Shown: positions 1 to 50,260, numbered from the stretch's first letter. The stretch is 64,000 nt of DNA from Candidatus Nanoarchaeia archaeon (GCA_041653515.1 JBAZFG010000002.1:125632-189631); one strand, 5' to 3'. Notes: generated by a model not told the origin, from the letters alone. Numbers and translations are program-made.

Positions 1-180
1 AAATATAACTGCGGCAAGCTAATCAGACCATTCATAAAAAAACACAAAAAGGAAGGGGTTAAAAGATTATTGTATAAAAAGTCATTTATAAGTTTTGAAT
101 CATTAAAAAAAGAACCAATTACTTATATGGGCTTTTTATTTATGAAATCTCTGGAGTTTACTGCGTGGTGCTTTGGTATC

Positions 181-18051: not shown

Positions 18052-18074
18052 AAAGAGTATGAAAAAGTATTACT

Positions 18075-19508: not shown

Positions 19509-19511
19509 TAT

Positions 19512-21050: not shown

Positions 21051-22289
21051 TTGTTTTACTTAATGAAGGTATGCATTGTTTGTGATTACTTGCCTGAATA
21101 CCATGATACTTGGGGTGGGGGTGAGAAAGCCTCAATCAGCATTGCCCGTTTACTGGCAAGTAAAGGCGAGGCTGTGTCAGTGGTAACTAAGAAACCAAAT
21201 AAGCCTGTTAAAGAGTTGTTTAAGCATTATTCTTTAAGGACTACTGAGGACTTCCTTGGCAGTAAGGCTGGTCTTTATTTCTCGCGCTTCAAGTCAATCT
21301 GGGTTCCGTTTGATTTAATCACTTATTTCTCCGCGCTAAAACTATTCAGGCGTATCAAGCCTGACATTATTAGTCTTGGCAATTTCCGCGAGTTATCACT
21401 TTCTGTTGTCCTTGCCGCGCACAAGCTTAACATACCAGTTGTTTATTCGGTTTATGATTACTGGTTATTCTGCCCTAAGATTGATTTAGTTGATAATAAT
21501 GGTTCTTGCAGTGCCAATTGCAATAAGTGTATTTCAGGCGAGCGCTTTGGCTCATTCAAGCGCTTGTTGGTGCCTTTAAGGAATTTTATTTTTAACCGGA
21601 TTAGTTTTGACCGCGTGATTGCATTGTCAGATAACTCGCGTCAGTTAATAGCCCGGCACGGCGTTAATAAGAATAAGTTAAGGGTTGTCCCGTTGCCGTT
21701 TGGTGACTTAAAGACTGACTTGAAGTCAAGGGTTGACCCTAATCTGATATTATTCATGGGCTGGGTTCATCACCGGAAGGGCCTTAAAATCCTTGTTCAG
21801 GCGATGAACTTGCTTGCCAAGTCAAACCCTAAGGCAAGGCTCGTTGCGCTTGGAATGCCAGCTGATAAGTCTTACGAAACTGCTGTCAGGTCAATCATGG
21901 GTGGTAACGTTGAGTTAGTTATTGGCCGTAAACCGCTTGATGAGGTTAAAAAGTTAGTTGCCCGCGCAGGTATTATTGTTATCCCGGAACAATGGGCTAA
22001 CATGTCGCCGGTGCTGCTTATCGAGTCTATGTTTAATGCCAAGCCAATCATTGCGAGCAGGGTTGGGGGCATCCCGTCATTTATCAAGCATGGTGAGAGC
22101 GGCTTGCTCGCCTGCCATGACAAGCCTGATGACTTCGCGCGACAAATTAAGTTATTGCTTGACAGCCCATCACTGGCCAAGCGCTTTGGGCTTAAAGCCC
22201 GGGAGCAGGCGCTTGATAAATTTAATAAGAACAAGGTTTATTTCAAGCTAATGAGTGTTTATGGCGGTTTACTCAAGCAAAAAGCCTGA
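21051..22289 (+). CDS. GT4-family glycosyltransferase
   Basis: 'MKVCIVCDYLPEYHDTWGGGEKA' N-terminus; C-terminal 'PEQWANMSPVLLIESMFNAKPIIASRVGGIP'; GC-rich codon usage. Confidence 0.7.
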   Translation: MFYLMKVCIVCDYLPEYHDTWGGGEKASISIARLLASKGEAVSVVTKKPNKPVKELFKHYSLRTTEDFLGSKAGLYFSRFKSIWVPFDLITYFSALKLFRRIKPDIISLGNFRELSLSVVLAAHKLNIPVVYSVYDYWLFCPKIDLVDNNGSCSANCNKCISGERFGSFKRLLVPLRNFIFNRISFDRVIALSDNSRQLIARHGVNKNKLRVVPLPFGDLKTDLKSRVDPNLILFMGWVHHRKGLKILVQAMNLLAKSNPKARLVALGMPADKSYETAVRSIMGGNVELVIGRKPLDEVKKLVARAGIIVIPEQWANMSPVLLIESMFNAKPIIASRVGGIPSFIKHGESGLLACHDKPDDFARQIKLLLDSPSLAKRFGLKAREQALDKFNKNKVYFKLMSVYGGLLKQKA

Positions 22290-23286
22290 AGAAGTTTATG
22301 GCAAGTTATTCTCCGATGTTAAGGGCAAGCGGGTAATAATTAAGCCTAACTTAGTTACTGACTTGCCGGCTAATAGCGGCGTCACCACTGACCTGCGCTT
22401 AGTGTCAAAACTAATTAAGTTCCTTAAGGGTCGTGGCGCCAAAGTAATTGTGGCTGAATCAGGTCTTGCTCACACTGATAGTATCATTAAGAAACTTAAA
22501 CCATCATTTAAAGTGGTTAACCTTGACAACTGTGATCGCGTGCCTGTCAAGTCACTGACTGGCTTGATATTAAAGGAGTTCCGCCTGCCAAAAATCGTTG
22601 TTGAAGCGGACTTAATCATTAGTTTTGCTAAGATGAAGACTCACGCTCTCACTACTGTCACGCTGTCAATCAAGAACTTATTTGGCTTGTTATGTCAGGG
22701 CGAGCGGAAGAAATCTCACGTGCAGGGATTAAATGAGTCAATTGTTGATTTATTCTCAGCCCTGCCAAAAGTAGTTGGTTTGGTTGATGGCCTGATCGCT
22801 CTTGACGGCAAGTTCGGGCCAGTCAGCGGTTCGCCCCGCAAAGTAGGGCTGGTCATTGGCTCAACCGACCCGCTTGCTTGTGATTCTTATTGCGCTAAAT
22901 TAATGGGTGCTAACCCTAATAAAATCACTCACATGCGCTTGTGCGCTAAAAATTGTCTTGGCAGTTTTGATGATACTGATGTTAAGGGCTTGTCATTTGA
23001 CTTGCCGCCTTTCTTCATGCCATTAGCCAGCAAGTTATTGGAGCGTTATCGCCGGCGCAAGCCTTATTTGATGAGCCCTGATAATTGCGTTAAGTGCCTT
23101 GAGTGCGTTAATAATTGTCCTGTTAAGGCTATCTCAAAGTCAATTGAGTTTGATTACAATAAGTGTATTGGCTGCATGGTCTGCGTTGAGTCATGCAAGC
23201 ATAAAGCGCTTGGGTATAAACTTAGCCTGCCAACGAGGGTGATTCATTACTTGTTTAAGACTTTCTTTAAGAGACGGCGCAAGTAA
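22255..23286 (+). CDS. DUF362 domain protein fused to 2x[4Fe-4S] ferredoxin domain
   Basis: N-terminal region similar to 32819..33880 (DUF362-like); C-terminal 'CVKCLECVNNCP' and 'CIGCMVCVESCK' CxxCxxCxxxCP clusters. Confidence 0.55.
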   Translation: MFMAVYSSKKPEEVYGKLFSDVKGKRVIIKPNLVTDLPANSGVTTDLRLVSKLIKFLKGRGAKVIVAESGLAHTDSIIKKLKPSFKVVNLDNCDRVPVKSLTGLILKEFRLPKIVVEADLIISFAKMKTHALTTVTLSIKNLFGLLCQGERKKSHVQGLNESIVDLFSALPKVVGLVDGLIALDGKFGPVSGSPRKVGLVIGSTDPLACDSYCAKLMGANPNKITHMRLCAKNCLGSFDDTDVKGLSFDLPPFFMPLASKLLERYRRRKPYLMSPDNCVKCLECVNNCPVKAISKSIEFDYNKCIGCMVCVESCKHKALGYKLSLPTRVIHYLFKTFFKRRRK

Positions 23287-24356
23287 TACTTTATTGTGTA
23301 AGGCCTCATTGACTGGGTCATCTTGTAGATTGCTTCCTGCTGTTCTTTTGGGTAAGCATCTGATTGTGGTTTGGCGTGCTCGCCATAAAAAGTCATGTCT
23401 GCCCGGCTATCATCAGTTGGCGGGATAAAATAAGAGAAGTGGCCGTTGACGCCTTCATTTTTAACCCACTCAACGTTCGCTAGGTCACTCTTGTATGTTG
23501 AGCCCGGCAAGCCAATGATGAAATAACAATTAACACTCCTGAAGTATTTTTTCGCAATCCTGACCGCTTTCTTCACTTGTTCTGGTTTCAAGCCTTTCTT
23601 AATGTTCTTTAATACAACCAGACTTAGGCTCTCCACCCCGAAACTAACGTGATTGCAGCCGGAGCCTGAGATTGCCTTGGCTTGCTCCTTGTTGAATAAG
23701 TCAGCGCGCAAGCCGTTGGTGCAAAACCACTTTAAGTTTAATGGTTTTATCAATTCGCAAAACTCAATAACCCTCTTGTTGACTGCGTTAAAGCAGTCAT
23801 CAATTATCTGAAATGACTTAATGTCATACTCCTTTTTTGCTTTCTTTATTTCTTCATAACAATTCTTGGCGCTTCTCATCCTTAAACGCCTGTTCCTTGA
23901 CGCGCAGTAAATGCACTGGAACGGGCAGCCAAGGCTCGTCAGCACTGGGTAAGCCCACTTGCCGCTTGACCAGTTATCCCTGAACGTCTCGTATGAGTCA
24001 AATAGGGAGTAATCAGGGAATGGCAGTTTGTCATTAAAATCATTGTTAATGTTAACATTGCTCTTGAATTGGTTGAATGGGTAGCAGCACTGGACGTCAA
24101 CAACCCCTGTCACTGACTTGACTCTTGATTTTGGGTGAGCCCGCTTGTACTCAGCCTTTATCCTTTTACTTTCATTGTAAGCGGCTGAGCGGATTGAGAT
24201 TAGTGCTGTGTCATCATTAACTTTTAAGTACCTTTTTTTTGGTTTTTGCTTAGTATTAAGGTCAATTACCCGGCTTTTCTTGAGCGTGGCAATGTAAGCA
24301 AGGCTCATGTTTGGCAGGTCCCTGTTAATCCCAGAATTAGGGTTTATCAGTATCAT
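23247..24356 (-). CDS. radical SAM protein (B12-binding-like N-terminus)
   Basis: 'SLGCPFQCIYCAS' CxxxCxxC; N-terminal 'LINPNSG...MSLAYIATLKK' resembles the B12-binding segment of the two flanking class-B rSAMs. Confidence 0.65.
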   Translation of the reverse strand: MILINPNSGINRDLPNMSLAYIATLKKSRVIDLNTKQKPKKRYLKVNDDTALISIRSAAYNESKRIKAEYKRAHPKSRVKSVTGVVDVQCCYPFNQFKSNVNINNDFNDKLPFPDYSLFDSYETFRDNWSSGKWAYPVLTSLGCPFQCIYCASRNRRLRMRSAKNCYEEIKKAKKEYDIKSFQIIDDCFNAVNKRVIEFCELIKPLNLKWFCTNGLRADLFNKEQAKAISGSGCNHVSFGVESLSLVVLKNIKKGLKPEQVKKAVRIAKKYFRSVNCYFIIGLPGSTYKSDLANVEWVKNEGVNGHFSYFIPPTDDSRADMTFYGEHAKPQSDAYPKEQQEAIYKMTQSMRPYTIKYYLRRLLKKVLNK

Positions 24357-25465
24357 TTTTTCCTGACCGTTTTTTTGTAGATTGAGCAGTTAGCGCATGG
24401 GGCTGGCACTTTGCCTTTCCTTAAGCCTTCCCTTAATTCTTTGTAGTCCTTCCCAAACCAAATCTCTTTTAGTGAAAGTTCCTTAATGTTGCCAAGCGAT
24501 GTTTTCTTCTGGAAATCCCTTTGATTGGCCTCGTTTCCGACGCAGCAGGGAATAACATGTCCTGTTACGAATACGAAAGGCATTATCCATTCAATGCACT
24601 TATCCATTGGTTCCTTGTCATCTGGTACGTTGGCCCCATAGTGCATTCTTATACCATAAGAATTGGCCTTAGCCTTGACTTGCCTAAAATAAGTGTTAGG
24701 CACTTTAGTTACGAGGTTCTTTATCTCCTTGAATGGGTGTAATAATAATGTGTATATGACTTTAACGTCATCATTCATCTTAATGCTGTTAACGTAGTCC
24801 ATGAATAACGGCACTTCCTTGACGTTTATTTTGTTGACAATGAAGTGAAAGTTGACTTCCGGGAATGGTTTTTTCATTTCCTTTTTTAGTTCTATTAGCT
24901 TCTTGATGTTCTTTGTTACTACGTCAAAATTTGAGCCAACCCTTATTTTCTCGTAAGTCTCCTTTGTGGCTCCGTCAATCGAAGCCAGTATCCTATCAAC
25001 TCCTAATTCAATCAGTTTTCTTGCAATCTTTTCATTGAGGAAGATAAATGAGTCATATATCTCGACGTATATCTTCTTTTTCTTGACGTACTCTATCATC
25101 TTAAGGTAATCTTTATTTAGGAACGCTTCCCCTATCCCTGTCAGACCTATCCATTTCAAGTGTGGGAACTGGTCAATTATTCTCTTAAATTCCTCAAAGT
25201 TCATGTCCCTTGCGGGTTCACTCCAGTACGTGTGCTCGCATATTTTGCATTTGAGGTTGCACTTGGTTGTGACTTCTATTTCCATGAAAGGGGGGGTTAT
25301 ATTAAAGAACCTGCCAAGTTTTATTAGTAGCAGGTTGCTCCAGAATTTTGATTGCCATAATAAGTAGAACCATGTGTAATTATATGTTGCTTTTAGTCCT
25401 TGATGCCTTAACATGTTGTAAATAAATTTTGAGTACCTCTTGACTTTCATTATTACCTGTTTCAT
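24353..25465 (-). CDS. radical SAM / SPASM-like domain protein
   Basis: 'TTKCNLKCKICEH' CxxxCxxC; C-terminal Cys-rich 'CCVGNEAN...CANCS' auxiliary-cluster-like region. Confidence 0.6.
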   Translation of the reverse strand: MKQVIMKVKRYSKFIYNMLRHQGLKATYNYTWFYLLWQSKFWSNLLLIKLGRFFNITPPFMEIEVTTKCNLKCKICEHTYWSEPARDMNFEEFKRIIDQFPHLKWIGLTGIGEAFLNKDYLKMIEYVKKKKIYVEIYDSFIFLNEKIARKLIELGVDRILASIDGATKETYEKIRVGSNFDVVTKNIKKLIELKKEMKKPFPEVNFHFIVNKINVKEVPLFMDYVNSIKMNDDVKVIYTLLLHPFKEIKNLVTKVPNTYFRQVKAKANSYGIRMHYGANVPDDKEPMDKCIEWIMPFVFVTGHVIPCCVGNEANQRDFQKKTSLGNIKELSLKEIWFGKDYKELREGLRKGKVPAPCANCSIYKKTVRKK

Positions 25466-25490
25466 TATGATCTTTTATGATTATTTTCTT

Positions 25491-26573
25491 TTAAATCTTT
25501 TTATTGGCTTTGAATTCCTTTGAGTACTTTCTGGTTAGTTTAATGTATTCATTTCCGTACTCGTGGCTTGGCTCTATCTCGGTTCCCTCGTGCCACTCGT
25601 TGAAGCTAGTGATTGACACTACTTGAGGGTTCTTCTTTATAGCTGCTTCCCAGCAGCGTTTGTAAACACTGCCTTTTTCCCTTGACACGACTGCGTAATG
25701 CTTGATGCCGAGTGTTATTAATATCCACTTGAAGTCGCCCCTGGCTAATCGCTTGAGTAATTTGACAAATAAAGTCCACACCCGTTTGATTGAGAAATTG
25801 CTTTTTAACCCTTCAGCTAACTCGCCGATGAATTCTTTTGGTATCTCTTTGACCCCTGAGTCATCATAGCCTGGCATGACTGTCAGCACGCAAATCTTCT
25901 TGTGCTTGTCGCACATGCCTTTTATTTTTGAGTACTCAGTGAACATGTTTTTCTTGTTGAATAAAGCGTCAAGGTAAGTGTACCTGAAAGCGCCGTCAAA
26001 ATTACTAACCCATTCTTCATACTTGGAGTCAACTATTAAGTAAGCGCCGGTCGCTTTCTTAACTAAATCCCTGACTACCAGCCACTTGTTGAGTCCTAAT
26101 TGCATTAGCACTCTTGCGTATAATATGATGAACGGCTTGCCGTTAACCCTGAAAAATGATTTGTGCTTGCCATACTTGTTAATCAGTCCAATTAAGTGTT
26201 TGGCCACTTTCTCCGGCTCAAAACTATTGGGCAGGTCCTCGTAATAGAATGTTAGTTTAACGCCGGGCGTCTTGTCAGCGATGCTTAGCATTTTTTCGAA
26301 GTTTTTGTGCGTGTGAGTCATCTTCTGCTCCCAGATTGAGACGAGTAACGCGTTAATGCCTGCTTCTTTTGCCATCCTTAAGTGCTCTTTTATCACTGCT
26401 GGGTCGCTTGAGTCATAAGCGCCGAGTAACGGGTGGTCGGCTGACGCAATATCAGGCAAGCCCTTTATTTTCCTGTCAGGGTCATGGCCGCCTTGTTTCC
26501 ATTTAAGCCATTGCTTTGAGTGTTTTGGGCTGCCAAACCATGGGTAATAAAAAGCGAGCACTTTCTTGTTCAT
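25491..26573 (-). CDS. glycoside-hydrolase-like TIM-barrel protein (GH99/GH71-like)
   Basis: N-terminal 'AFYYPWFG...W.KW' motif reminiscent of the GH99 endo-alpha-mannosidase family; weak. Confidence 0.3.
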   Translation of the reverse strand: MNKKVLAFYYPWFGSPKHSKQWLKWKQGGHDPDRKIKGLPDIASADHPLLGAYDSSDPAVIKEHLRMAKEAGINALLVSIWEQKMTHTHKNFEKMLSIADKTPGVKLTFYYEDLPNSFEPEKVAKHLIGLINKYGKHKSFFRVNGKPFIILYARVLMQLGLNKWLVVRDLVKKATGAYLIVDSKYEEWVSNFDGAFRYTYLDALFNKKNMFTEYSKIKGMCDKHKKICVLTVMPGYDDSGVKEIPKEFIGELAEGLKSNFSIKRVWTLFVKLLKRLARGDFKWILITLGIKHYAVVSREKGSVYKRCWEAAIKKNPQVVSITSFNEWHEGTEIEPSHEYGNEYIKLTRKYSKEFKANKKI

Positions 26574-27634
26574 AGAACTTTTTTGAAATTGCTTCCATTT
26601 ATAATTATTCTGTTTAATCCTTTCATGTGCGCTTTGACCCCAAATCTTTCTGCGTTTTTTTTGCAGTCGCTTGCCTTGAATTTATTATGCCAGTTCTGCA
26701 ATACCCTGATTAAGTTCTCCTCGTATGGCTCGTTTATTAGCACGCCTGTTTTGTTAGTGATTGTTTCCTTGAACCCTCCGTCATTGACTGCGATGACTGG
26801 TTTGCCTGACGCATTAGCTTCAACTGGCACTAAGCCAAAGTCCTCGCCTTTGTTTAATTGGATGACTGCCTTGCACTCTGAGTAATATTTTCTTAATTCA
26901 GTCTCACTTAACCGGCCGAGTAACTTAATGTTTTTGTTAGCCATTGCTTTTAGTTCTTCCATCATCATGCCAGTGCCTGCTATCATTAATTCTTGTCCTG
27001 TCTTATTGAACACTTTGATTAGTGTGTCAATGCGCTTGACTGGCTCGAGTCTTGATACGCAAAAGAAGTAATCTTTTGACTTGGCTTGTTTGTAGTCTTT
27101 TAGTTCGGTTGGCGGGTAAATCACTATTATTTTTTTGTCTGGGTAAATCTTTTGCATAATATTTTTCATGTAATAACTGTTAGCGATTACAACATCAATT
27201 TTCTTGACTGCTTTTTGGTCTGCTCTTATTGTTAATTTACTTACTAAGTTGACTAACCAATTCTTTTTTTCCAATCCATAACTGACTTTGTTTGGGTGTT
27301 CTGAGTACCAGATTGTTTTTTTACCTGACTTGCTTGCAACAACGTGACTGTTAGGTGTTTCAGCAAGCACTAAATCATATTGCTTTAGGAACGAGCCTTT
27401 TTTCAGGCACCAGAATAAGTTTACTATTGTCCTAAACATTGGCAGTTTTCGTGCCCAAGGCATTAATTCTATTATTCTTGCTTCCTTGAAGTATTCTGGA
27501 TAAACTTTTGAGTCATAGACGCTGGTATAAATTGTCACGTCATGTTTTTTTGATAATTCCTGATAGTGAATACCTGTTACTTTTTCTGCCCCGCCAATAT
27601 TTGTTAGGAATGGCACGATTATTGCTATTTTCAC
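26570..27634 (-). CDS. GT4-family glycosyltransferase
   Basis: 'EDFGLVPVEANASGKPVIAVNDGG' E-x7-E motif. Confidence 0.7.
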   Translation of the reverse strand: MKIAIIVPFLTNIGGAEKVTGIHYQELSKKHDVTIYTSVYDSKVYPEYFKEARIIELMPWARKLPMFRTIVNLFWCLKKGSFLKQYDLVLAETPNSHVVASKSGKKTIWYSEHPNKVSYGLEKKNWLVNLVSKLTIRADQKAVKKIDVVIANSYYMKNIMQKIYPDKKIIVIYPPTELKDYKQAKSKDYFFCVSRLEPVKRIDTLIKVFNKTGQELMIAGTGMMMEELKAMANKNIKLLGRLSETELRKYYSECKAVIQLNKGEDFGLVPVEANASGKPVIAVNDGGFKETITNKTGVLINEPYEENLIRVLQNWHNKFKASDCKKNAERFGVKAHMKGLNRIIINGSNFKKVL

Positions 27635-27683
27635 GTTATTTATAATTAATGCAAACTTTTTAAATACTTTTTATTCATTAATA

Positions 27684-28736
27684 ATGAGTATGCGTATTGC
27701 TTTCGTTATTATTGGTTACCACCCAACTATTGGAGGTTATGGCAGGCATGTTAAACTGGTTTCTGATGAGCTTCGCAGGCGGGGCCACGAAGTCACTATT
27801 TTGACTACTAATTTTAGCCCTGGGCTTGTTGAAGCTGAGTCAGGCGTTATTAGGTTTAAACATGACCCTTTGTTTAAGATTACGCCGTCGCTTTTCTCGC
27901 ACTTGCTTCATAATGATTATGACCTTGTTCACGTTTTTGGTTATCAGAGTTTCCAGCCGTCAATTACTGCTTTGGCTAAGTGTTTTAAGAAATTCCCGTT
28001 AGTGTTTACTCCTCATTATCACCCATTCGGCCATAAGCCAATGTCATTGAGGAAATTGTTTGATGTCACGTTTGGTAATTACTCGCTTAGTCATGCTGAT
28101 TACGTTGTTACTACTACAGATTATGAGATGCGATTGCTTCGCCATCGCGCTAATCATATTAAAGTGATTCCTAATCCTTTAGAGGTTGATAAGCTCAAGA
28201 AGTTGAAAGGTTTTAAGCGCAAGTATGGCCTGAAGGGTGATTTTGTCTTGTTTGTTGGCCGGATTGAGCAGGATAAGGGTTTGCAGTACTTGATTCCGGC
28301 TGTTAAGGGCCTTGATACTACTTTGGTCGTGATTGGCAATGACGCTGGCTTTAAAGCTGAGTTACCAGTTCAGGGTAATGTCTTGTTTACTGGGCCTTTA
28401 TCGCAGGATGATTTGATGCGGGCTTATAATGAGTGCGCGTTTTTAGTGTTGCCGAGCCGTTATGAATCATTTGGGTTAGTGTTAATTGAAGCTATGCATT
28501 ATTCTAAGCCAGTGATTGCTTCGCGTGTTGGTCCTGTTCCATCGATTGTTAAGGATACTGGTTTAGTCGTGCCTTATGGCGATGTTAATGGGTTGCGTTT
28601 AGCTGTTACTAAATTATTGTCTGATAAGAAGTTGCGCCAATCAATGGGCCGTTATGCTTACCGTAACTCACTTGTTTATGGGGTTGATAATGTTGTTGAT
28701 AAATTATTAATGATTTATAATAAGGTGATTGAGTGA
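27684..28736 (+). CDS. GT4-family glycosyltransferase
   Basis: 'ESFGLVLIEAMHYSKPVIASRVGPVP'; N-terminal 'GGYGRHV'. Confidence 0.7.
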   Translation: MSMRIAFVIIGYHPTIGGYGRHVKLVSDELRRRGHEVTILTTNFSPGLVEAESGVIRFKHDPLFKITPSLFSHLLHNDYDLVHVFGYQSFQPSITALAKCFKKFPLVFTPHYHPFGHKPMSLRKLFDVTFGNYSLSHADYVVTTTDYEMRLLRHRANHIKVIPNPLEVDKLKKLKGFKRKYGLKGDFVLFVGRIEQDKGLQYLIPAVKGLDTTLVVIGNDAGFKAELPVQGNVLFTGPLSQDDLMRAYNECAFLVLPSRYESFGLVLIEAMHYSKPVIASRVGPVPSIVKDTGLVVPYGDVNGLRLAVTKLLSDKKLRQSMGRYAYRNSLVYGVDNVVDKLLMIYNKVIE

Positions 28737-29581
28737 AATACACTATTGGTGTCCCTGCCTATAAGGAGATTAGTATTACTAAGTGCTTGCAATCACTCTT
28801 AGCTGAGCAGTTGCCGTCGTCTGAGATAATTGTTGTCTGCCCTGATGATGAGACTGCTTTGCTTGTTAAGTCATTTAAGGGTGTTAAATTAATTAAAGAG
28901 AAGAGTAAGCAGGGCAAGCCCGCGGCTGTTAATAAGATTCTGAAGGCAGCTAAGGGTGATGTTATTATCCTGACTGACGCTGACATGTTCATTAATAATG
29001 GTAGTCTGCGCAAGTTAGTTTCTCATTTTAAGGATAAGAGTGTTGGTGTTGTCTGCGGTCACCCGGTCGTTATTCCGCAGAAGGGCATGCTTGGTTATTG
29101 GGGCAGTGTGTTGTATGACTTGGCTCATCAGTCGCGTTTGGCTGGCGCTAATCACTTATCAACTAATTTGTGTGCTTTTCGCAGGGGTTTAGTTAAGTCT
29201 ATTCCGCTTGAGTCATTGGTTGATGATTATGTTATTGGGCTTGAAGCATCAAAGAAGCATTCTTTTATTTATGAGCCAAGAGCAATTGTTAATGTTAGGT
29301 TCCCGTCCACTACTCGTGATTTTCTTAAGCAGCGGGTTAGGACTTTTGCTGGTTACATGCAAGTCAAGGATTGGTATGGTAGTAGTGAGCGCTCGTTTGG
29401 CAGTGAGGCGCGCGCAGCTAACAGTGTTTTATCCTATGTTAAATCGCCTAAAAACTTGTTTTGGGTTGTTTGTTTGGCTTTTTATCGCTTGCGCGCTTGG
29501 CTGGGCGCTTACTGGGTTTATCGTGTGAAGAAGAAAAGCCTGAAGGATGTTTGGGTTCCTGCTTTGAGCACTAAAAAGTAA
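28733..29581 (+). CDS. GT2-family glycosyltransferase
   Basis: 'IIVVCPDDE...VIILTDADM' DxD motif; 4-nt overlap with the upstream GT4. Confidence 0.6.
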   Translation: MKYTIGVPAYKEISITKCLQSLLAEQLPSSEIIVVCPDDETALLVKSFKGVKLIKEKSKQGKPAAVNKILKAAKGDVIILTDADMFINNGSLRKLVSHFKDKSVGVVCGHPVVIPQKGMLGYWGSVLYDLAHQSRLAGANHLSTNLCAFRRGLVKSIPLESLVDDYVIGLEASKKHSFIYEPRAIVNVRFPSTTRDFLKQRVRTFAGYMQVKDWYGSSERSFGSEARAANSVLSYVKSPKNLFWVVCLAFYRLRAWLGAYWVYRVKKKSLKDVWVPALSTKK

Positions 29582-29614
29582 TCTTTTTAAGTTATTAATT
29601 GTGAGTAATATCTT

Positions 29615-31162
29615 ATGTATTTTAAGGAGCATCAATTGTTTTACTTGTTTCTCGCTGTGTTCACTCTTTTTTCTTTGTTTAATATTGATTTTACTCACTT
29701 GAATTCTGATGAGGGTTCTTATGCTTTGACTGCTGTGTTCTTTAATCGGTTGGTTGGTGATTGGCTGGCTAATCCTACAATTGACCCGTCTGCGTTGTTC
29801 TCTTACGCTAAAGCTTACTACGTGTTCTACCCTAAGTTCATGTTCCTTAATGGCCCGTTGCTTAATTTGATTAACGCGCCAATCTCTTTCTCGCCGCTAC
29901 TGATGAAGTTGGTCACGCTTGCGTTCTCTATTGGCACTATCATTGTTTTGTATCATTTTGTGTTATTATTCTTTAAGAAGGAGCCTGACGCACCACAACT
30001 TGCTTTATTGTCTGCTGTCCTGACTGCTACTTCCAGCGTCTTTTTTTATTCATCTATCACTATCATGCTTGACGTGCCGAGTATTTTCTTTTTTGTGCTC
30101 GCTTTGTTCTTGTTTTTTAAGAATAAGCCTTTGTTGACTGGTTTGTGTCTTGGCTTGAGTGTTTTGATGAAGGATGTTGCCCTGCCTTACGTGGCTATTT
30201 TCTGCTTGCTTATTATTAGGGATTTCCGCAAGCAGTGGAAGTTATTCCTCATGCTTGGCTTGTCATTGTTGCCTTATATTATTTTGATTGCTGCTTCTGG
30301 CGGGCTTGACATTTTTGCCCAATACCCTGCAAAACAATTATGGTATGTTGAGCGTCAGGGCGACCCTCAGTGGTATGATTTGTCCGGCTGGCTTTATTAC
30401 TGGCAGACTATTGTGGCTAATTATTCATTAGTGGTCCTGCCGTTCCTGTTCTTTGGTATGTATTACGCTTACAAGAGTGGCCATGGTTTCATAGTCTTAT
30501 TCATCTTATTATCATTCTTAGTTGTTACTCTTATGAGTGATAAGGCTGAGCGCCGAGTGCTTAACTCAGTGATGTTCTTGTCGCCGTTGATTGCTTTGGG
30601 CGCGGCCCGTTTTTATAATCATATTAAGTCACCTAATAGTCGTTTCTTATTATTGTTCATAATCACTTTGATGTTAGTGGTTCAACTGCCGTTGTTTAAT
30701 CAGCATCTTAGCGTGCCAATGGCTGAGGTGGCTATTGATTTGGTTAATGATTGTCCTGACTGCACTGTGTTAATTGCAAGCGAGACTGGTAATGCTTACT
30801 CTAGTTTCTTAATGTATGAGTCATTAATCCGTGATGAGAACGTGTCTTTGCGTTTCATCAGGCCGGCTGTGTTTGAGTCAATGAGCGCGCTTGAAGTGAT
30901 TAATTCTGAGCGCGTTAATCGCGTTGTAGTGATTGGTGATTTTGATTACTTATGGGCTAATTATGATTACCCTGTTTACTTGCCTCAGATTAATTTCATT
31001 GTTAACCGCTATCAGTTAATCAAGGCTTATGAGTCTGATGTTGTGGGCCACATCTTTGTTTTTGATACTGGTATCACTGACCATAAGGCTTTGCCGTTGT
31101 GCGTCTCGTCGCCGTCACTGGGTTCATCGTTTTGCACTGATGCTAAGCCTTCTTTTGCATAA
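29615..31162 (+). CDS. GT-C fold membrane glycosyltransferase (ArnT/PMT, GT39/83-like)
   Basis: Multi-TM; first-loop 'NSDEGSYALTAVFF' acidic DE motif typical of the ArnT/PMT family. Confidence 0.5.
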   Translation: MYFKEHQLFYLFLAVFTLFSLFNIDFTHLNSDEGSYALTAVFFNRLVGDWLANPTIDPSALFSYAKAYYVFYPKFMFLNGPLLNLINAPISFSPLLMKLVTLAFSIGTIIVLYHFVLLFFKKEPDAPQLALLSAVLTATSSVFFYSSITIMLDVPSIFFFVLALFLFFKNKPLLTGLCLGLSVLMKDVALPYVAIFCLLIIRDFRKQWKLFLMLGLSLLPYIILIAASGGLDIFAQYPAKQLWYVERQGDPQWYDLSGWLYYWQTIVANYSLVVLPFLFFGMYYAYKSGHGFIVLFILLSFLVVTLMSDKAERRVLNSVMFLSPLIALGAARFYNHIKSPNSRFLLLFIITLMLVVQLPLFNQHLSVPMAEVAIDLVNDCPDCTVLIASETGNAYSSFLMYESLIRDENVSLRFIRPAVFESMSALEVINSERVNRVVVIGDFDYLWANYDYPVYLPQINFIVNRYQLIKAYESDVVGHIFVFDTGITDHKALPLCVSSPSLGSSFCTDAKPSFA

Positions 31163-31183
31163 TATTTAAAAGATAGTTATTAT

Positions 31184-32422
31184 TTGAATTTTTTCGTGAA
31201 GATTGTTATTCTGGGCGCTGGGTTGACTGGCTTAGCTGCTAGTCAGTTATTATCTCATGAGCATGACGTGCTCGTTCTTGAGAAGGGTGACCAGCCCGGT
31301 GGGTTAGCTGCTAGTTTTCGCCAGGATGGTTTTGACATCCCGTTCTTTTATCATCACGTGTTCAAGCAGGAGCTTGTTACGCAGGATTACTTAGCTAAGG
31401 CAGGTATTATTATTAATAATTGGTCTAAGGTTCGGATGGGCATTAATGTTGGTGAGGGCACTGTTAATTTCTCTAACCCGCTTGAATTAATTAAATGGCC
31501 TTATTTATCATTTGGTGGCCGCATTCGTTTTGGCTTGTTTGGCGCTCAATTCTTCATGCCGCAGAACTGGTCTCGGTTGAGGGGTGTTAATGCTGAGGCT
31601 TGGCTTTTAAAAGCAGCTGGTAATGAAGTGACTAGTAAGATTTTTGCGCCGTTAATGTTTAACAAGTTTGGCATGCCTCTTAGTAAGATTAGTGCTGAGT
31701 GGTTAGCAACTCGGTTGGCTGCTCGTGAGGCTCAGAGTTTCTTTGGTTACCCTAAGGGTGGTGTGGCTCGTTTGGTTGATTACTTGGTTAAGGATAATAA
31801 CTCGCAGATTATCCTGAAGGCGCGTTTATCTGGTGTTGACTTGAAAGCTAAGACTGTATCCTATAATGGTAAGAAAGTCAAGTATGATGTGTTAATTAAT
31901 ACTATTCCGATGCCTGTGTTCTTGCCGTTAGTTAGTGGTTTGCCTGATAAGTTGCGCAAGCAGTGGTCGCGCGTTAAGTTCATTAAGCATTTGAGTTTGG
32001 TCGTGGCTCATGATAAGTTGTTGGAGGATTTTTATTGGATTAATGTTTTTGGCAAGGATTTTGGTGGCATTATCCAGCATTCTTATTTGAATGATGCTTA
32101 CCCGTTCAAGTTATCGTTCGTGTTTAGTTACGCGCCTAGTGACGCTATTTGGGGTTTGTCTGATAAAGCGGTTCAGTCTTTGTTCCTGAAGCGACTTAAG
32201 GAGTTATACCCTCACGTCAAGCCTAAGTGGTCTAGGGTTACTCGCGCAATCTATGCTGACCCTTTCTGTGATGAAGCGTATAAGTCTTATCGGCCTGATT
32301 ACGAGACTGGCGTTAAGGGTTTTTATAATGCTGGCATCCAAGTCACTAGTCCTGATTACATGCGAAGCATGAATAATTCACTGCTAAGCGGTCAGACGAT
32401 TGCAAAGAAAGTGTTAGGGTAG
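31184..32422 (+). CDS. FAD-dependent oxidoreductase, UDP-galactopyranose-mutase/amine-oxidase-like
   Basis: N-terminal 'IVILGAGLTGLAASQLL...VLVLEKGDQPGGLAAS' dinucleotide-binding fold. Confidence 0.5.
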   Translation: MNFFVKIVILGAGLTGLAASQLLSHEHDVLVLEKGDQPGGLAASFRQDGFDIPFFYHHVFKQELVTQDYLAKAGIIINNWSKVRMGINVGEGTVNFSNPLELIKWPYLSFGGRIRFGLFGAQFFMPQNWSRLRGVNAEAWLLKAAGNEVTSKIFAPLMFNKFGMPLSKISAEWLATRLAAREAQSFFGYPKGGVARLVDYLVKDNNSQIILKARLSGVDLKAKTVSYNGKKVKYDVLINTIPMPVFLPLVSGLPDKLRKQWSRVKFIKHLSLVVAHDKLLEDFYWINVFGKDFGGIIQHSYLNDAYPFKLSFVFSYAPSDAIWGLSDKAVQSLFLKRLKELYPHVKPKWSRVTRAIYADPFCDEAYKSYRPDYETGVKGFYNAGIQVTSPDYMRSMNNSLLSGQTIAKKVLG

Positions 32423-32457
32423 TAAATCTTTTATTAGCTTGCTTCCTTTATTCTATT

Positions 32458-32775
32458 ATGCGTTACTTGCCCTTGCTTGGTTTGTTGTTGATTCTTGGTT
32501 GCACTAGTGTTGATGAGTGTAACTCAGGCGATGCTTGCACTGATTTTGAGTGTCAGGTGACTAATTGTTGGTGCGCTCATGAAGGGGTTTTATATGAGTC
32601 AGGGGTTATGGTGGTTAGTAATGTTACTGCGGCGAGCGTTGTTAGTGATTACCTTGGCGTTAGTGTTGACCGCGCGGTCAGTATTAGTGATGACTTCTAT
32701 AACGTGTTCGTTGAAGATGAAGCTTATACAGTGTATAAGGATGGAACAATAATAATGACTCAATGCGGCGTTTAA
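32458..32775 (+). CDS. small secreted Cys-rich protein (possible lipoprotein)
   Basis: Signal peptide 'MRYLPLLGLLLILGC' with a lipobox-like LGC; seven Cys. Confidence 0.3.
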   Translation: MRYLPLLGLLLILGCTSVDECNSGDACTDFECQVTNCWCAHEGVLYESGVMVVSNVTAASVVSDYLGVSVDRAVSISDDFYNVFVEDEAYTVYKDGTIIMTQCGV

Positions 32776-32818
32776 ACTTTAAGACCGCCTCTTCTGTTGC
32801 TTTAGCGAAGGCGTGGTC

Positions 32819-33880
32819 TTATACTTTTAACCCACCACGTCTGCATAATGGCCTGTATAGTGTTTTTAGCCAGCTGTTCTGGCAGACGTTCTTGGCGTAT
32901 TTCTTGCCGTGCAGGTTGTACCAGATGATTGTGTTATAGATCGTGGCGCCCCAGGCTGGTATCTTGAATATTGGTGTGTCAAAGATTAACCATTTGAGGC
33001 CTGGCACTTTCCTCAAGCTCATCTCTAGTAAAAATATTGGTTGTGAGTTGGCTTTAGGAGGCTTGAATGGGTCAGTGTAGAATTTATCCCCGATAATCTC
33101 GTATTTCATCTCACCCACACCCATCTCTTGAGCATTAATGAGCATTTTATTATCATCTGTTGGTAAGCCCATGAAATTACTGCCTGCAGTGTCAATTGAT
33201 ACTCGGTCGTGGCTAGCCATTATTAAGTCGCATTGTTTTGGCACGCCTGTGCGTGGCGCGTTGCCTTCCATGACCATTGTAACATCCATGACTGCGAACT
33301 GGATTTTCTTTAAGTAAGCGTTAATGTCAGCAATACACTGATTAGCCCTAGTGTGGTATTGGTGTCTGACTCGTGGCACAATGCCCCACTGGTTCTTTAA
33401 GCCGCCGGTTAATCGGGTTAAGCAGTGAGTTTTTAGTATTGGCAGTGTGATTATGACATCAGCGTCAACAACTGTTTTAGGTAAGTCCAGTTCCTTGAAT
33501 ACTTTGCCACCAACCTTGACTTTAACCATCTTATCCTTGCTAAGGTTGATGAATGGCGCGTTGTATTTCTCGCCTAATTGTTTGAAACCCCATGCTTGGA
33601 TTGCTTCATCCAAGTGCTCTGATGCTGCTAGGTCAGCGTCGCCCATAGTGATTTGGGCTTTAGGCAATTCTTTTCTTATCTTCATTAAGACTGCCTCAAC
33701 CACCCAAGGACTGGTGCACTGGCCAGGCACTACTTGGTTGCTCATAGCATTAACTTTAAGGAATATCTTATTGCCTTTAACGTATTTTTTCCAGTCAGCT
33801 AATTCCATTGCGCGCCAAACTGTCTCGAACACGCCTGTACGGCTTCTCTTCTTGATTTTACAGAAAGCTACTTTACTCAT
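32819..33880 (-). CDS. DUF362 domain protein
   Basis: Aligns with the N-terminal two-thirds of 22255..23286, e.g. 'VKGNKIFLKVN'/'VKGKRVIIKPN' and 'LPILKTHCLT'/'FAKMKTHALT'. Confidence 0.5.
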   Translation of the reverse strand: MSKVAFCKIKKRSRTGVFETVWRAMELADWKKYVKGNKIFLKVNAMSNQVVPGQCTSPWVVEAVLMKIRKELPKAQITMGDADLAASEHLDEAIQAWGFKQLGEKYNAPFINLSKDKMVKVKVGGKVFKELDLPKTVVDADVIITLPILKTHCLTRLTGGLKNQWGIVPRVRHQYHTRANQCIADINAYLKKIQFAVMDVTMVMEGNAPRTGVPKQCDLIMASHDRVSIDTAGSNFMGLPTDDNKMLINAQEMGVGEMKYEIIGDKFYTDPFKPPKANSQPIFLLEMSLRKVPGLKWLIFDTPIFKIPAWGATIYNTIIWYNLHGKKYAKNVCQNSWLKTLYRPLCRRGGLKV

Positions 33881-50197: not shown

Positions 50198-50204
50198 TAA
50201 TTCA

Positions 50205-50217
50205 TTTTTTTTTTTTT
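50205..50217 (+). terminator. 13-nt oligo-T tract (archaeal-type terminator), followed by a TATA-like 'TTTATAAGG'
   Basis: T13 run just 3' of the R15P isomerase stop; ~45 nt upstream of the AMP phosphorylase start. Confidence 0.4.
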
Positions 50218-50260
50218 ATAAGGGTAATATCTTTAAATCCTGATATGTTAAGAAACATTA

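What the first reader, a model, noticed from the sequence alone, without database searches (positions are those of the whole stretch)
22255..33880. Two DUF362 proteins (one fused to a di-cluster ferredoxin) co-located with radical SAM enzymes
DUF362 has no assigned function. Here one copy carries a C-terminal 2x[4Fe-4S] ferredoxin and sits head-to-tail against the rSAM pair. A second, stand-alone copy lies 10 kb away next to GT-C transferases. This context suggests DUF362 acts as a redox or electron-delivery partner, or a substrate-handling subunit, for the radical SAM chemistry in this pathway.
Basis: inference. Interest (0 to 1): 0.55.

Follow-up and report, generated by a model that had tools for sequence, protein, structure and literature searches.

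The report
Two LarA-fold DUF362 enzymes in glycan island
A DPANN archaeon's surface-sugar gene island holds two different DUF362 proteins shaped like lactate racemase: the ferredoxin-fused one keeps company with a sugar-type radical SAM enzyme only within its own small clade, and the other always pairs with a flavin oxidoreductase, so both are probably sugar-tailoring redox enzymes, not general radical SAM helpers.

Summary
Both ORFs are solid PF04015 (DUF362) hits. One carries an intact 2x[4Fe-4S] ferredoxin domain, and two radical SAM (rSAM) genes abut it. However, that gene is convergent with the rSAM pair (40-nt 3' overlap), not head-to-tail, and it ends a separate NTP-transferase>GT4 operon.

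The two copies belong to different orthogroups.
- **Ferredoxin-fused copy:** 8 of 10 distinct proteins in its clade sit beside an ortholog of the SPASM rSAM and/or the second rSAM, in varying arrangements. In 148 loci of the wider family, rSAM neighbours are at background (2.0% vs 1.8%). The rSAM pair also occurs elsewhere without DUF362.
- **Stand-alone copy:** in 5 of 5 loci it pairs with a FAD amine-oxidase-type oxidoreductase. GT2 and polytopic membrane proteins lie nearby.

DUF362 is more likely a catalytic redox or epimerase-like tailoring module than a plain electron carrier. The mechanism remains inferred.

The parts
20313..21041 (+). Sugar-1-phosphate nucleotidyltransferase (AglF/GalU-like); first gene of the + strand unit that ends in DUF362-Fd
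   Evidence: NCBIfam hits to AglF-like and Arch_glmU, all below cutoff. Orthologs sit in the same position in L001-L006.
21051..22289 (+). GT4 glycosyltransferase; its stop codon overlaps the DUF362-Fd start
   Evidence: GT4-type NCBIfam hits. Orthologs are 61-65% identical in L001-L003 and L092, and 27-30% in L004, L006 and L096.
22261..23286 (+). DUF362 (LarA-fold) domain fused to a C-terminal 2x[4Fe-4S] ferredoxin domain ('copy A'; an alternative GTG start lies at 22255)
23247..24356 (-). Radical SAM enzyme 'rSAM_B' (369 aa), convergent with DUF362-Fd with overlapping 3' ends; closest solved relative is AprD4
   Evidence: PF04055 E=2.9e-19. CPFQCIYC motif. Best NCBIfam hit is HpnJ at 93 bits, far below the 577 cutoff. 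PDB: AprD4 6fd2 E=2.4e-9. Orthologs are 68-74% identical in L001-L003 and L092 and 52% in L174, which has no DUF362.
24353..25465 (-). Radical SAM/SPASM enzyme (370 aa), overlapping the rSAM_B start by 4 nt; closest solved relative is BtrN
   Evidence: PF04055 plus PF13186. CNLKCKIC motif and 5 C-terminal Cys. TIGR04317 scores 155 bits, below the 380 cutoff. PDB: BtrN E=1e-8. Orthologs lie next to DUF362-Fd in L002/3, L004/5, L006, L093 and L096.
25491..26573 (-). GH99-like / WbsX-like protein in the rSAM operon
   Evidence: PF16317 E=5e-41 and PF14307. One or two copies are conserved in L001-L003 and L093.
26570..27634 (-). GT4 glycosyltransferase; first gene of the - strand rSAM operon
   Evidence: PF00534 and PF13439.
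27684..29581 (+). GT4 (27684..28736) followed by GT2 (28733..29581); the start of the + strand unit leading to the FAD oxidoreductase
   Evidence: Pfam. A GT2 accompanies the copy-B module in L008-L011 and L175.
29615..31162 (+). Polytopic GT-C-like membrane protein (weak PMT hit)
   Evidence: PF02366 E=1.4e-3, below cutoff. The L001 counterpart hits PMT/PMT_2.
31184..32422 (+). FAD-dependent amine-oxidase/phytoene-desaturase-type oxidoreductase; the conserved partner of stand-alone DUF362
   Evidence: PF01593 and PF13450. NCBIfam PRK07233 scores 273 bits, above the 252 cutoff. Orthologs are adjacent to copy-B orthologs in L008, L009/10, L011 and L175, and are found in no DUF362-Fd locus.
32458..32775 (+). 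Small Cys-rich ORF with a lipobox-like signal (MRYLPLLGLLLILGC); whether it belongs to the module is uncertain
   Evidence: No Pfam hit. Sequence shown. No similarity to the DUF2304 protein of L175.
32819..33880 (-). Stand-alone DUF362 ('copy B', 353 aa): LarA-fold domain plus a conserved ~80-aa helical C-terminal extension
33959..36897 (.). Polytopic membrane protein without a Pfam hit (33959..35506, +) and an Alg9/PMT_2-type GT-C (35503..36897, -)
   Evidence: Pfam; at least 9 hydrophobic segments.
36946..38328 (-). B12-binding radical SAM enzyme; the third rSAM of the region
   Evidence: PF02310 plus PF04055. In L175 a B12-rSAM lies directly downstream of the FAD oxidoreductase, but it is only 28% identical to this one.

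Best explanation
The region is the core of a ~43-kb surface-glycan/N-glycosylation island of a Ca. Nanoarchaeia (DPANN) archaeon. It holds two paralogous DUF362 proteins that belong to different orthogroups. Both have the lactate-racemase (LarA) fold and a pocket of invariant Lys/Asn/His/Asp residues at the C-terminal ends of the beta-strands. This includes the counterparts of LarA His174 and Lys184, and in copy A His200 as well.

I read DUF362 as the catalytic, substrate- or cofactor-binding module of a redox or epimerase-like sugar-tailoring enzyme. Its electrons would travel through a dedicated partner.

- **Copy A.** The partner is its own 2x[4Fe-4S] domain. Copy A would work in the same sugar branch as the BtrN-like SPASM rSAM, and in this clade also the AprD4-like rSAM. 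The proposed sequence is: NTP-transferase makes the activated sugar; the rSAM(s) oxidise or dehydrate a C-OH; DUF362-Fd handles the resulting keto/hydroxy redox step or recycles the electron; GT4 and WbsX-like enzymes then install the sugar.
- **Copy B.** The partner is the adjacent FAD oxidoreductase. Together with the GT2 and the polytopic GT-C or PF03706 membrane proteins, copy B would modify a lipid-linked sugar or its carrier.

Shown here: domain identities, fold, motif conservation, and the two subfamily-specific gene linkages. Inferred: the substrates, the direction of electron flow, and any cofactor.
For: - **Identity and context.** P0001 and P0241 are 100% identical proteins from a Ca. 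Nanoarchaeia MAG. The island holds two AglB/STT3 genes, an AglH-like gene, a Wzx-type flippase, many GT2/GT4/GT-C genes, NTP-transferases, PGM and four rSAMs.
- **Pocket.** The same invariant K-x-N, K-T-H and K-N-x-[FW]-G motifs, plus conserved His and Asp positions, occur in both subfamilies. Two independent DUF362 profiles align H128/K138 (copy A) and H152/K162 (copy B) with LarA H174/K184. For copy A, H153 also aligns with H200. The LarA sequence was verified against 5huq, and the residue roles come from PMC11770544.
- **Copy A linkage.**: 8 of 10 clade proteins are rSAM-linked, with varying gene order and orientation.
- **Sugar-type rSAMs.** The closest solved structures are BtrN and AprD4. 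SPASM orthologs elsewhere always sit among NTP-transferase, epimerase and GT4 genes.
- **Copy B linkage.** DUF362 and the FAD oxidoreductase are adjacent in Methanotrichaceae, Bathyarchaeia, another methanogen and Nanoarchaeota loci. In the window they are near neighbours, convergent, with a 105-aa ORF between them. GT2 and PF03706/DUF2079/UbiA membrane proteins accompany them. FAD-oxidoreductase homologs are absent from all DUF362-Fd loci.
- **Not a dedicated rSAM reductase.** The mainstream DUF362-Fd family has no conserved neighbour at all, which fits a self-contained redox enzyme.
Against: - No biochemical datum exists for any DUF362 protein in the searched literature.
- The hhalign probabilities are low (3-22%). 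The residue mapping therefore rests on agreement between two profiles plus the fold match, not on a 3D superposition.
- LarA Arg75 and His108, and the whole LarA C-terminal domain, are missing. PF09861 is not hit even at E<=10. LarA-like hydride chemistry is therefore not assured.
- No NPN-biosynthesis genes lie in the window.
- Similarity to BtrN and AprD4 is confined to the rSAM core (E about 1e-8 to 1e-9).
- In the window, copy A is not co-transcribed with the rSAMs.
- Two clade-I lineages (L012 and L094/95) lack an adjacent SPASM or rSAM_B ortholog.
- The rSAM pair works elsewhere without DUF362.
- The five Nanoarchaeia loci are syntenic relatives, so the number of independent linkage events is about four.
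Confidence: 0.5

Rival explanations
1. DUF362-Fd is a dedicated electron-delivery protein that reduces the [4Fe-4S] cluster of the neighbouring rSAM enzymes. Alternatively, it accepts the electron released by an rSAM dehydrogenase. The DUF362 domain serves only as a docking or electron-entry module.
For: - All 8 ferredoxin Cys are invariant.
- The fused gene is conserved next to the SPASM rSAM in its clade, including translationally coupled pairs in L004 and L006.
- BtrN-type rSAM dehydrogenases must dispose of an electron through auxiliary clusters (established knowledge; the BtrN similarity is).
- DPANN genomes are poor in general redox carriers (established knowledge).
Against: - rSAM orthologs 51-55% identical function in glycan clusters without any DUF362.
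- The wider DUF362-Fd family shows no rSAM enrichment.
- The DUF362 domain keeps an enzyme-like invariant pocket shared with the ferredoxin-less copy B.
- A plain electron carrier would not need a 230-residue LarA-fold domain.
- The source of electrons for DUF362-Fd is unspecified.
Confidence: 0.2
2. The co-location is a by-product of a crowded, mosaic glycan island. Each DUF362 protein carries out an independent tailoring or housekeeping reaction unrelated to the rSAM steps.
For: - The island carries four rSAMs and more than 15 glycan genes, so almost any gene there lies near an rSAM.
- Copy A is in a different transcription unit from the rSAMs.
- There is no family-wide enrichment.
- Copy B's true partner is a flavoprotein.
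- GC content varies across the island, from 0.27 to 0.45, which suggests a mosaic origin.
Against: - The SPASM/DUF362-Fd adjacency recurs after rearrangement. In L001 the gene sits at the other end of the rSAM operon.
- The adjacency also recurs in distant relatives with the opposite gene order: L004 versus L006, and L096.
- After collapsing relatives, the chance probability is about 3e-4.
Confidence: 0.15
3. DUF362 is a non-catalytic binding subunit for a nucleotide, a sugar or a polyprenyl phosphate. It presents substrate to the rSAM (copy A) or to the flavoprotein (copy B).
For: - LarA His108 and Arg75 and the LarA C-terminal domain are absent, so the canonical catalytic apparatus is incomplete.
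- Both copies always travel with a redox-active partner.
- PF03706 or GT-C membrane proteins lie nearby.
Against: - Invariant His/Lys/Asp residues at strand ends are typical of catalytic or cofactor sites.
- The ferredoxin fusion is the commonest architecture and often occurs with no partner gene at all. That is hard to reconcile with a mere presenting subunit.
Confidence: 0.1

Closest known systems
LarA superfamily (Pfam DUF2088/PF09861; nickel-pincer-nucleotide-dependent 2-hydroxyacid racemases and epimerases; PDB 5HUQ, 7S91, 9EIA, 9Q3J)
   Same: - Same Pfam clan, CL0471 (PMC11770544).
- The His-x9-Lys motif aligns with LarA His174/Lys184. In copy A a further His aligns with the Ni ligand His200.
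   Different: - DUF362 covers only about half of LarA: roughly 220 of 424 residues align, and no counterpart of the second LarA domain is detected.
- It lacks Arg75 and His108.
- It is not recognised by PF09861.
- It is fused or coupled to Fe-S or FAD partners, which LarA enzymes do not need.
- No larB/C/E genes were seen in the window or as recurrent neighbours.
- No evidence of NPN binding.
Mainstream DUF362-ferredoxin fusion proteins of anaerobic bacteria and archaea (annotated 'DUF362 domain-containing protein' or 'uncharacterized Fe-S protein'; 370-390 aa)
   Same: Same two-domain architecture and the same invariant residues. Function is unknown in every library consulted.
   Different: - The window protein belongs to a separate small clade. 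Within-clade BLAST scores are 180-390 bits, against 100-170 bits to the mainstream group.
- That clade is rare in public data.
- Unlike the mainstream group, it is embedded in glycan clusters beside an rSAM/SPASM enzyme.
Carbohydrate-modifying rSAM systems of aminoglycoside pathways: BtrN (DOIA dehydrogenase) and AprD4/AprD3 (rSAM diol dehydratase plus separate ketoreductase)
   Same: - BtrN and AprD4 are the closest solved structures to the two rSAMs.
- The idea of an rSAM step followed by a separate redox enzyme acting on the keto intermediate matches the AprD4/AprD3 logic (established knowledge).
   Different: - Similarity is limited to the rSAM core (E 1e-8 to 1e-9).
- NCBIfam AprD4 and other equivalog models score far below cutoff.
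- The partner here is a LarA-fold Fe-S protein, not an NAD(P)H-dependent SDR.
- The substrates are unknown glycan sugars of an archaeon.
DprE1/DprE2 decaprenylphosphoryl-ribose 2'-epimerase of mycobacteria (FAD oxidase plus reductase acting on a lipid-linked sugar used by GT-C transferases)
   Same: This is a functional analogy for copy B only. A flavoprotein and a second enzyme are encoded side by side. Next to them lie a polyprenyl-phosphate sugar synthase-type GT2 (or UbiA in L175) and several GT-C transferases.
   Different: - No homology. The flavoprotein here is amine-oxidase/phytoene-desaturase type (PF01593, PRK07233), whereas DprE1 is recalled to be a different FAD fold (VAO type); that was not tested here.
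- DprE2 is an SDR, not a LarA-fold protein.
- The substrate and the reaction are untested.

Membership tests
Pfam PF04015 (DUF362) | HMM score above the gathering threshold (24 bits) over the full 200-position model | tested here: met
   Copy A scores 135.3 bits over model positions 1-200. Copy B scores 150.2 bits over positions 1-198.
Pfam PF04015 (DUF362) | Family-wide invariant motifs: K-x-N after beta1, K-T-H, and K-N-x-[FW]-G | tested here: met
   Copy A has K28/N30, K126-T127-H128 and K138-N139..G142. Copy B has K42/N44, K150..H152 and K162..G166.
2x[4Fe-4S] bacterial-type ferredoxin domain | Two CxxCxxCxxxC(P) motifs and Fer4-family HMM hits | tested here: met
   Motifs CVKCLECVNNCP and CIGCMVCVESC. 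PF00037 scores 41 bits and PF12838 scores 40 bits, both above cutoff. All 8 Cys are invariant. The ferredoxin part of the model matches 1DUR, PorD and related structures. Copy B has no such domain.
LarA superfamily (NPN-dependent racemases/epimerases) | LarA-type fold | tested here: met
LarA superfamily (NPN-dependent racemases/epimerases) | Recognition by the family model PF09861 (DUF2088) | tested here: not met
   No PF09861 hit for 10 diverse DUF362 proteins, even at E<=10. A DUF362 profile finds no LarA chain in the PDB.
LarA superfamily (NPN-dependent racemases/epimerases) | NPN-binding residues Lys184 (tether), His200 (Ni ligand) and Arg75 (phosphate) | tested here: inconclusive
   Lys184 aligns with K138 (copy A) and K162 (copy B). 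His200 aligns with H153 in copy A only. Arg75 aligns with a non-conserved Leu. The alignment probability is only 3-22%.
LarA superfamily (NPN-dependent racemases/epimerases) | Two catalytic histidines (His108 and His174) | tested here: not met
   His174 aligns with H128 (copy A) and H152 (copy B). His108 falls in a 4-residue gap, and DUF362 has E66 (copy A) or D81 (copy B) nearby instead.
LarA superfamily (NPN-dependent racemases/epimerases) | Presence of NPN biosynthesis genes larB/larC/larE in the genome | not testable with these tools
   Only 64 kb of the genome is available, and none were seen in it. None recur near 148 homolog loci. A NadE neighbour in Methanosarcina is a true NAD synthase, not LarE.
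Radical SAM superfamily (PF04055), for the neighbours | CX3CX2C cluster motif and an HMM hit above cutoff | tested here: met
   ORF 23247..24356 scores 70 bits with motif CPFQCIYC. ORF 24353..25465 scores 60 bits with motif CNLKCKIC.
SPASM/twitch subgroup | C-terminal auxiliary-cluster domain (the 7-Cys SPASM motif for two clusters) | tested here: inconclusive
   PF13186 scores 49 bits, above the 21.5 cutoff. Only 5 Cys are present after residue 289 (C290, C307, C308, C357, C360), so a single auxiliary cluster (twitch-like) is possible.
TIGR04317 tungsten-cofactor oxidoreductase rSAM maturase; HpnJ (TIGR03471); AprD4 (NF033070) | Score above the curated equivalog cutoff | tested here: not met
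   TIGR04317 scores 155 against a cutoff of 380. HpnJ scores 93.5 against 577.6. AprD4 scores 43.9 against 500.
DprE1/DprE2-type two-enzyme epimerase (analogy for copy B) | VAO-type FAD oxidase plus SDR reductase acting on a polyprenyl-phosphate sugar | tested here: not met
   The flavoprotein here is PF01593/PF13450, PRK07233 type. The partner is a LarA-fold protein. This is a resemblance in gene logic only.

The most novel reading that the evidence does not exclude
DUF362 is a previously unrecognised class of LarA-fold redox catalyst. It keeps the His/Lys(/His) cofactor-site residues but works with Fe-S or flavin partners instead of, or in addition to, the nickel-pincer cofactor.

- **Copy A.** Its ferredoxin domain would close the redox cycle of a BtrN-like rSAM sugar dehydrogenase. 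The result would be net epimerisation or deoxygenation of a glycan sugar.
- **Copy B.** Together with the FAD oxidoreductase, it would form an archaeal two-enzyme system analogous to DprE1/DprE2. That system would remodel a dolichyl/polyprenyl-phosphate sugar, or the carrier lipid itself, for GT-C transferases.
Probability: 0.15. Interest if true: 0.75.

Novelty: new variant of a known kind. Interest (0 to 1): 0.45.

Why it matters
PF04015 is a very large family found in anaerobic bacteria and archaea, and no member has a known function. This analysis splits the two copies into separate orthogroups and gives each a specific, conserved partner: a sugar-type SPASM rSAM for one, and a PRK07233-type flavoprotein with GT2 and membrane proteins for the other. 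It also shows that the LarA His/Lys site residues are retained.

Those results turn 'domain of unknown function' into two concrete, testable enzyme pairs acting on archaeal surface glycans. If confirmed, they would extend lactate-racemase-type chemistry to carbohydrates and lipid-linked sugars. They would also help explain unusual sugars in DPANN and other archaeal glycans.

If not confirmed, the region is still a well-described but ordinary glycan island.

Tried and rejected
1. **Sequence searches of both DUF362 proteins and their profiles against the PDB.** Only ferredoxin domains or noise came back.
2. **Pfam scan at E<=10, looking for a weak PF09861 hit.** None was found.
3. **Literature searches** for DUF362/PF04015/COG2006/COG2768, for rSAM-SPASM in polysaccharide clusters, and for DPANN N-glycosylation. 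No functional study turned up. The LarA paper's supplement holds no sequences.
5. **NadE next to DUF362-Fd in Methanosarcina as a possible LarE (NPN biosynthesis).** Rejected: it is a bona fide NAD synthase, scoring 473 bits against a cutoff of 313.
6. **Recurrent neighbours of mainstream DUF362-Fd** (GGDEF regulator, presenilin-like protease, sigma-54 activator, UvrD, beta-CASP, HAD, PGM, SpoU). Rejected as lineage synteny without functional meaning.
7. **C-terminal extensions as amphipathic membrane anchors.** A Kyte-Doolittle and hydrophobic-moment scan gave no support, so the claim was dropped.
8. **The two 515-aa membrane proteins as paralogs, and the 105-aa ORF as DUF2304.** No similarity was found.
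9. **The window's B12-rSAM as an ortholog of the one next to the FAD oxidoreductase in L175.** They are only 28% identical, so this is not treated as a conserved partner.
10. **My own ORF caller merged or suppressed the SPASM gene in L001.** The public gene calls were used instead.

Full report
**1. What is there**

ORF listing and Pfam/NCBIfam scans confirm the two DUF362 proteins.
- Copy A, 22255/22261..23286 (+), matches PF04015 at E=3.6e-39 over the whole model. It continues into a ferredoxin domain with two complete motifs, CVKCLECVNNCP and CIGCMVCVESC.
- Copy B, 32819..33880 (-), matches PF04015 at E=1e-43. It has no Fe-S motif but carries a roughly 80-residue C-terminal extension.
- The two copies are only 28% identical.

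Copy A abuts two radical SAM (rSAM) genes.
- 'rSAM_B', 23247..24356 (-), contains CPFQCIYC.
- A SPASM rSAM, 24353..25465 (-), contains CNLKCKIC and hits PF13186.

Copy A is on the opposite strand, so the genes converge with a 40-nt overlap of their 3' ends. Copy A is the last gene of the unit NTP-transferase > GT4 > DUF362-Fd and overlaps the GT4 stop. The rSAMs end a separate - strand unit: GT4 > GH99/WbsX-like > SPASM rSAM > rSAM_B.

**2. Context**

Copy A and the SPASM rSAM are 100% identical to proteins of a Ca. Nanoarchaeia MAG on a 191.8-kb contig. Window positions ~0-43 kb form one glycan/N-glycosylation island. It contains:
- two AglB/STT3 genes (12863..14770 and 40340..42958) and an AglH-like GT (39122..40141);
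- a Wzx-type flippase, PGM and four NTP-transferases;
- a UDP-GlcNAc 2-epimerase-like gene and a GHMP kinase;
- many GT2 and GT4 genes and several GT-C-type or polytopic membrane proteins;
- four rSAMs, including B12-binding ones at 181..1704 and 36946..38328.

The remaining 44-64 kb is housekeeping. In such an island, mere proximity to an rSAM carries little weight. The test has to be conservation elsewhere.

**3. Fold and active-site residues**

AlphaFold2 models built on alignments of homologs are confident: pLDDT 91.4 for copy A and 92.9 for copy B.
- This agrees with Pfam placing DUF362 and DUF2088 (LarA) in clan CL0471 (PMC11770544).

The alignments show a shared set of invariant polar residues.
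- Copy A: K28, N30, K126-T127-H128, K138-N139, D176 and D208, plus near-invariant E66 and H153.
- Copy B: K42, N44, D81, K150, H152, K162, R172, H176, D199 and D225.
- In the models these sit at the C-terminal ends of beta-strands and the helices that follow.

To map them onto LarA I wrote out the L. plantarum LarA sequence from memory and checked it. It is identical to chain 5huq_A. I then ran hhalign of the DUF362 profiles against it.
- Both profiles independently align the K-T-H...K-N segment with LarA ES**H174**FFAGFSGGR**K184**.
- For copy A, H153 also aligns with the Ni ligand His200, with a one-residue gap.
- LarA Arg75 and His108 are not conserved. His108 falls in a gap.
- The second half of LarA has no counterpart. 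PF09861 does not recognise DUF362 even at E<=10.
- The hhalign probabilities are low (3-22%). I treat this mapping as consistent, not proven.
- The LarA residue roles are those given in PMC11770544.

**4. Does DUF362 go with rSAM? The family at large**

A scan of one genome per species returned 80 loci at 27-39% identity, from many bacterial and archaeal phyla. A metagenome scan returned 80 more. I called ORFs in these loci and located the DUF362 gene with HMMs.
- Within +-3 genes, CX3CX2C proteins of at least 200 aa number 8/401 (genomes) and 6/300 (metagenomes).
- Farther away in the same loci they number 4/333 and 7/275.
- Pooled, that is 2.0% against 1.8%, Fisher p=0.84.
- Seven of the eight genome hits hit the rSAM model (six above its cutoff, one just below); the eighth is a spore photoproduct lyase, also a radical SAM enzyme.
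- Clustering of 399 neighbours found no family in more than 7 of 74 loci. The recurrent ones are unrelated genes such as a GGDEF regulator, a presenilin-like protease, NadE and UvrD.

The mainstream DUF362-ferredoxin protein therefore has no conserved partner.

**5. Copy A's own clade**

The picture is different close to the window protein.
- Orthologs at 55-59% identity (L001, L002/L003, L092, L093) keep the rSAM module next door.
- In L001 and L093 the gene has moved to the other end of that operon, divergent from the GH99-like genes.
- At 41-42% identity the DUF362-Fd gene abuts or overlaps an ortholog of the SPASM rSAM on the same strand. The order is SPASM>DUF362 in L004/L005 and DUF362>SPASM in L006. 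Both sit inside polysaccharide clusters.
- L096 (32% identity) has GT4>SPASM>DUF362.
- Pairwise scores define a clade containing all of these plus two lineages with no SPASM or rSAM_B ortholog nearby. The first is L012, Ca. Syntrophoarchaeum. The second is L094/95, where an unrelated rSAM lies five genes away.
- In L012 a PF03706 membrane protein lies directly upstream instead. The same Syntrophoarchaeum genome encodes the SPASM ortholog in a GT4 cluster on another contig.
- In total, 8 of 10 distinct clade proteins are rSAM-linked, against a 6.8% per-locus background. The binomial p is 2e-8, or 3e-4 if syntenic relatives are collapsed to 4 of 6 lineages.

**6. The reverse test**

The SPASM rSAM belongs to a large, well-conserved family: more than 825 hits, at 47-58% identity among the 120 best listed, in archaea, CPR bacteria, Omnitrophota, Nitrospirae and others.
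- Three sampled neighbourhoods are all glycan clusters (GT4, NDP-sugar epimerase/dehydratase, NTP-transferase, Wzx, methyltransferases, B12-rSAMs). None contains DUF362.
- One of them, L174, keeps the overlapping SPASM>rSAM_B pair; its rSAM_B is 52% identical to the window's.
- The rSAM chemistry therefore does not require DUF362.
- The closest solved structures are BtrN for the SPASM enzyme (E=1e-8) and AprD4 for rSAM_B (E=2.4e-9). Both are carbohydrate-modifying rSAMs. Similarity is limited to the rSAM core, and all NCBIfam equivalog models score far below cutoff.

**7. Copy B**

Copy B belongs to a tight archaeal orthogroup at 43-93% identity over the full length. Members occur in DPANN lineages, Bathyarchaeia, Thermoproteota and Methanotrichaceae.
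- In every neighbourhood examined it is adjacent to an amine-oxidase/phytoene-desaturase-type FAD oxidoreductase, often with overlapping stop and start codons (L008, L009/10, L011, L175).
- A small GT2 is also nearby, along with PF03706, DUF2079 or UbiA membrane proteins.
- The window's flavoprotein (31184..32422) scores 273 bits on NCBIfam PRK07233, above the 252 cutoff. It is 41% identical to the L175 flavoprotein.
- Homologs of this flavoprotein occur in none of the 160 DUF362-Fd loci retrieved by the two scans.
- Copy B's partner is therefore a flavoprotein, not an rSAM. The B12-rSAM near it in the window is only 28% identical to the one in L175.

**8. Interpretation**

*Shown*
- There are two distinct LarA-fold DUF362 orthogroups.
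- Each has its own conserved redox partner: a fused ferredoxin domain plus, within the clade, a sugar-type SPASM rSAM for copy A, and a FAD oxidoreductase for copy B.
- Both are embedded in glycan biosynthesis.

*Inferred*
- DUF362 is the catalytic module for a hydroxy/keto redox or epimerisation step on a sugar. The arguments are LarA-type pocket residues, carbohydrate contexts, and redox partners in both paralogs.
- For copy A, the logic of AprD4/AprD3 and of BtrN suggests it reduces or re-oxidises the rSAM product, or recycles its electron.
- For copy B, the combination of GT2, flavoprotein and GT-C genes resembles the gene logic of DprE1/DprE2 acting on a lipid-linked sugar. There is no homology.

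*Alternatives*
- The simpler 'electron-delivery protein' reading remains possible but fits the reverse test and the invariant pocket less well.
- Coincidence is unlikely for copy A's clade, but it cannot be excluded for this particular, non-co-transcribed arrangement.

**9. Novelty and score**

No paper in the searched library assigns a function to DUF362. The only substantive mentions are its use as a LarA outgroup and its fusion to CBM9/dockerin modules.

The proteins themselves are ordinary members of a catalogued family. What is new is the split into two partner-specific modules and the retained LarA His/Lys site. Interest is moderate at 0.45: these are concrete, testable hypotheses for a large orphan family, but no surprising biology has been demonstrated yet.

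Noticed in passing
window 181..1704 (-) and 36946..38328 (-): Two further B12-binding radical SAM enzymes lie in the same glycan island, which brings the total to four rSAMs in 43 kb. This is an unusually rSAM-rich archaeal glycosylation locus, and the substrates are unknown.
   Followed up: partly
window 12863..14770 (+) and 40340..42958 (-): Two AglB/STT3 oligosaccharyltransferase paralogs (635 and 872 aa) bracket the island. An AglH-like Glycos_transf_4 gene lies at 39122..40141, and a SpoIIM-like gene follows the second AglB. The same SpoIIM-STT3 arrangement appears in L002.
   Followed up: no
window 32458..32775 (+): A 105-aa Cys-rich ORF with a lipobox-like signal peptide (MRYLPLLGLLLILGC) sits between the FAD oxidoreductase and stand-alone DUF362. 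It has no Pfam hit and no similarity to the DUF2304 protein at the comparable position in L175.
   Followed up: partly
window 1701..4430 (-), 4427..7279 (-), 33959..35506 (+), 54098..55597 (-): These are large ORFs with no Pfam hit or only a sub-threshold one (909, 950, 515 and 499 aa). The 950-aa protein has a faint GT-C AftD-like hit. The 515-aa protein has at least 9 hydrophobic segments.
   Followed up: no
window 23247..23286, and L002 11032..11077, L092 1335..1380: The convergent DUF362-Fd and rSAM_B genes overlap at their 3' ends by 40-46 nt in the window and in two related loci. This suggests a conserved arrangement, with possible antisense or transcriptional interference.
   Followed up: no
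L029 2863..9313 (uncultured Methanosarcinales): A same-strand run of four genes: B12-rSAM, then SPASM rSAM, then a long (528 aa) DUF362-ferredoxin protein, then an rSAM fused to a GT9 heptosyltransferase domain. This is an independent case of DUF362-Fd inside an rSAM-rich glycan operon, with a different SPASM family.
   Followed up: partly
L012 4860..7068 (Ca. Syntrophoarchaeum butanivorans): A PF03706 (LPG_synthase_TM, HpnL-like) membrane protein lies directly upstream of the clade-I DUF362-Fd. The same family follows stand-alone DUF362 in L008 and L011, so both DUF362 subfamilies are linked to this putative flippase-like protein.
   Followed up: partly
L175 5839..8062 (Nanoarchaeota): Two DUF362 genes (358 and 353 aa) are arranged divergently. 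Beside them lie UbiA, GT2, DUF2304, GT4, GT9, the FAD oxidoreductase, a B12-rSAM and an AglB fused to rotamase domains.
   Followed up: no
L025 2076..3068 and three other Methanosarcina-type loci: A genuine NAD synthase (NadE, PRK00876) recurs one or two genes upstream of mainstream DUF362-Fd. It is not LarE. The relevance to a nicotinate-derived cofactor is unknown.
   Followed up: partly
window 49295..51748 (+): An IF-2B-family protein (probably ribose-1,5-bisphosphate isomerase) is followed by an AMP-phosphorylase-like gene (Glycos_transf_3 plus PYNP_C). These are the first steps of the archaeal AMP/nucleoside salvage pathway.
   Followed up: no
window 1..6000 and 18001..20000: GC content drops to 0.27-0.33 against 0.37-0.45 in the rest of the island. 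The second low-GC block (18-20 kb) includes the Wzx flippase. This is consistent with mosaic or horizontally exchanged glycan cassettes.
   Followed up: no
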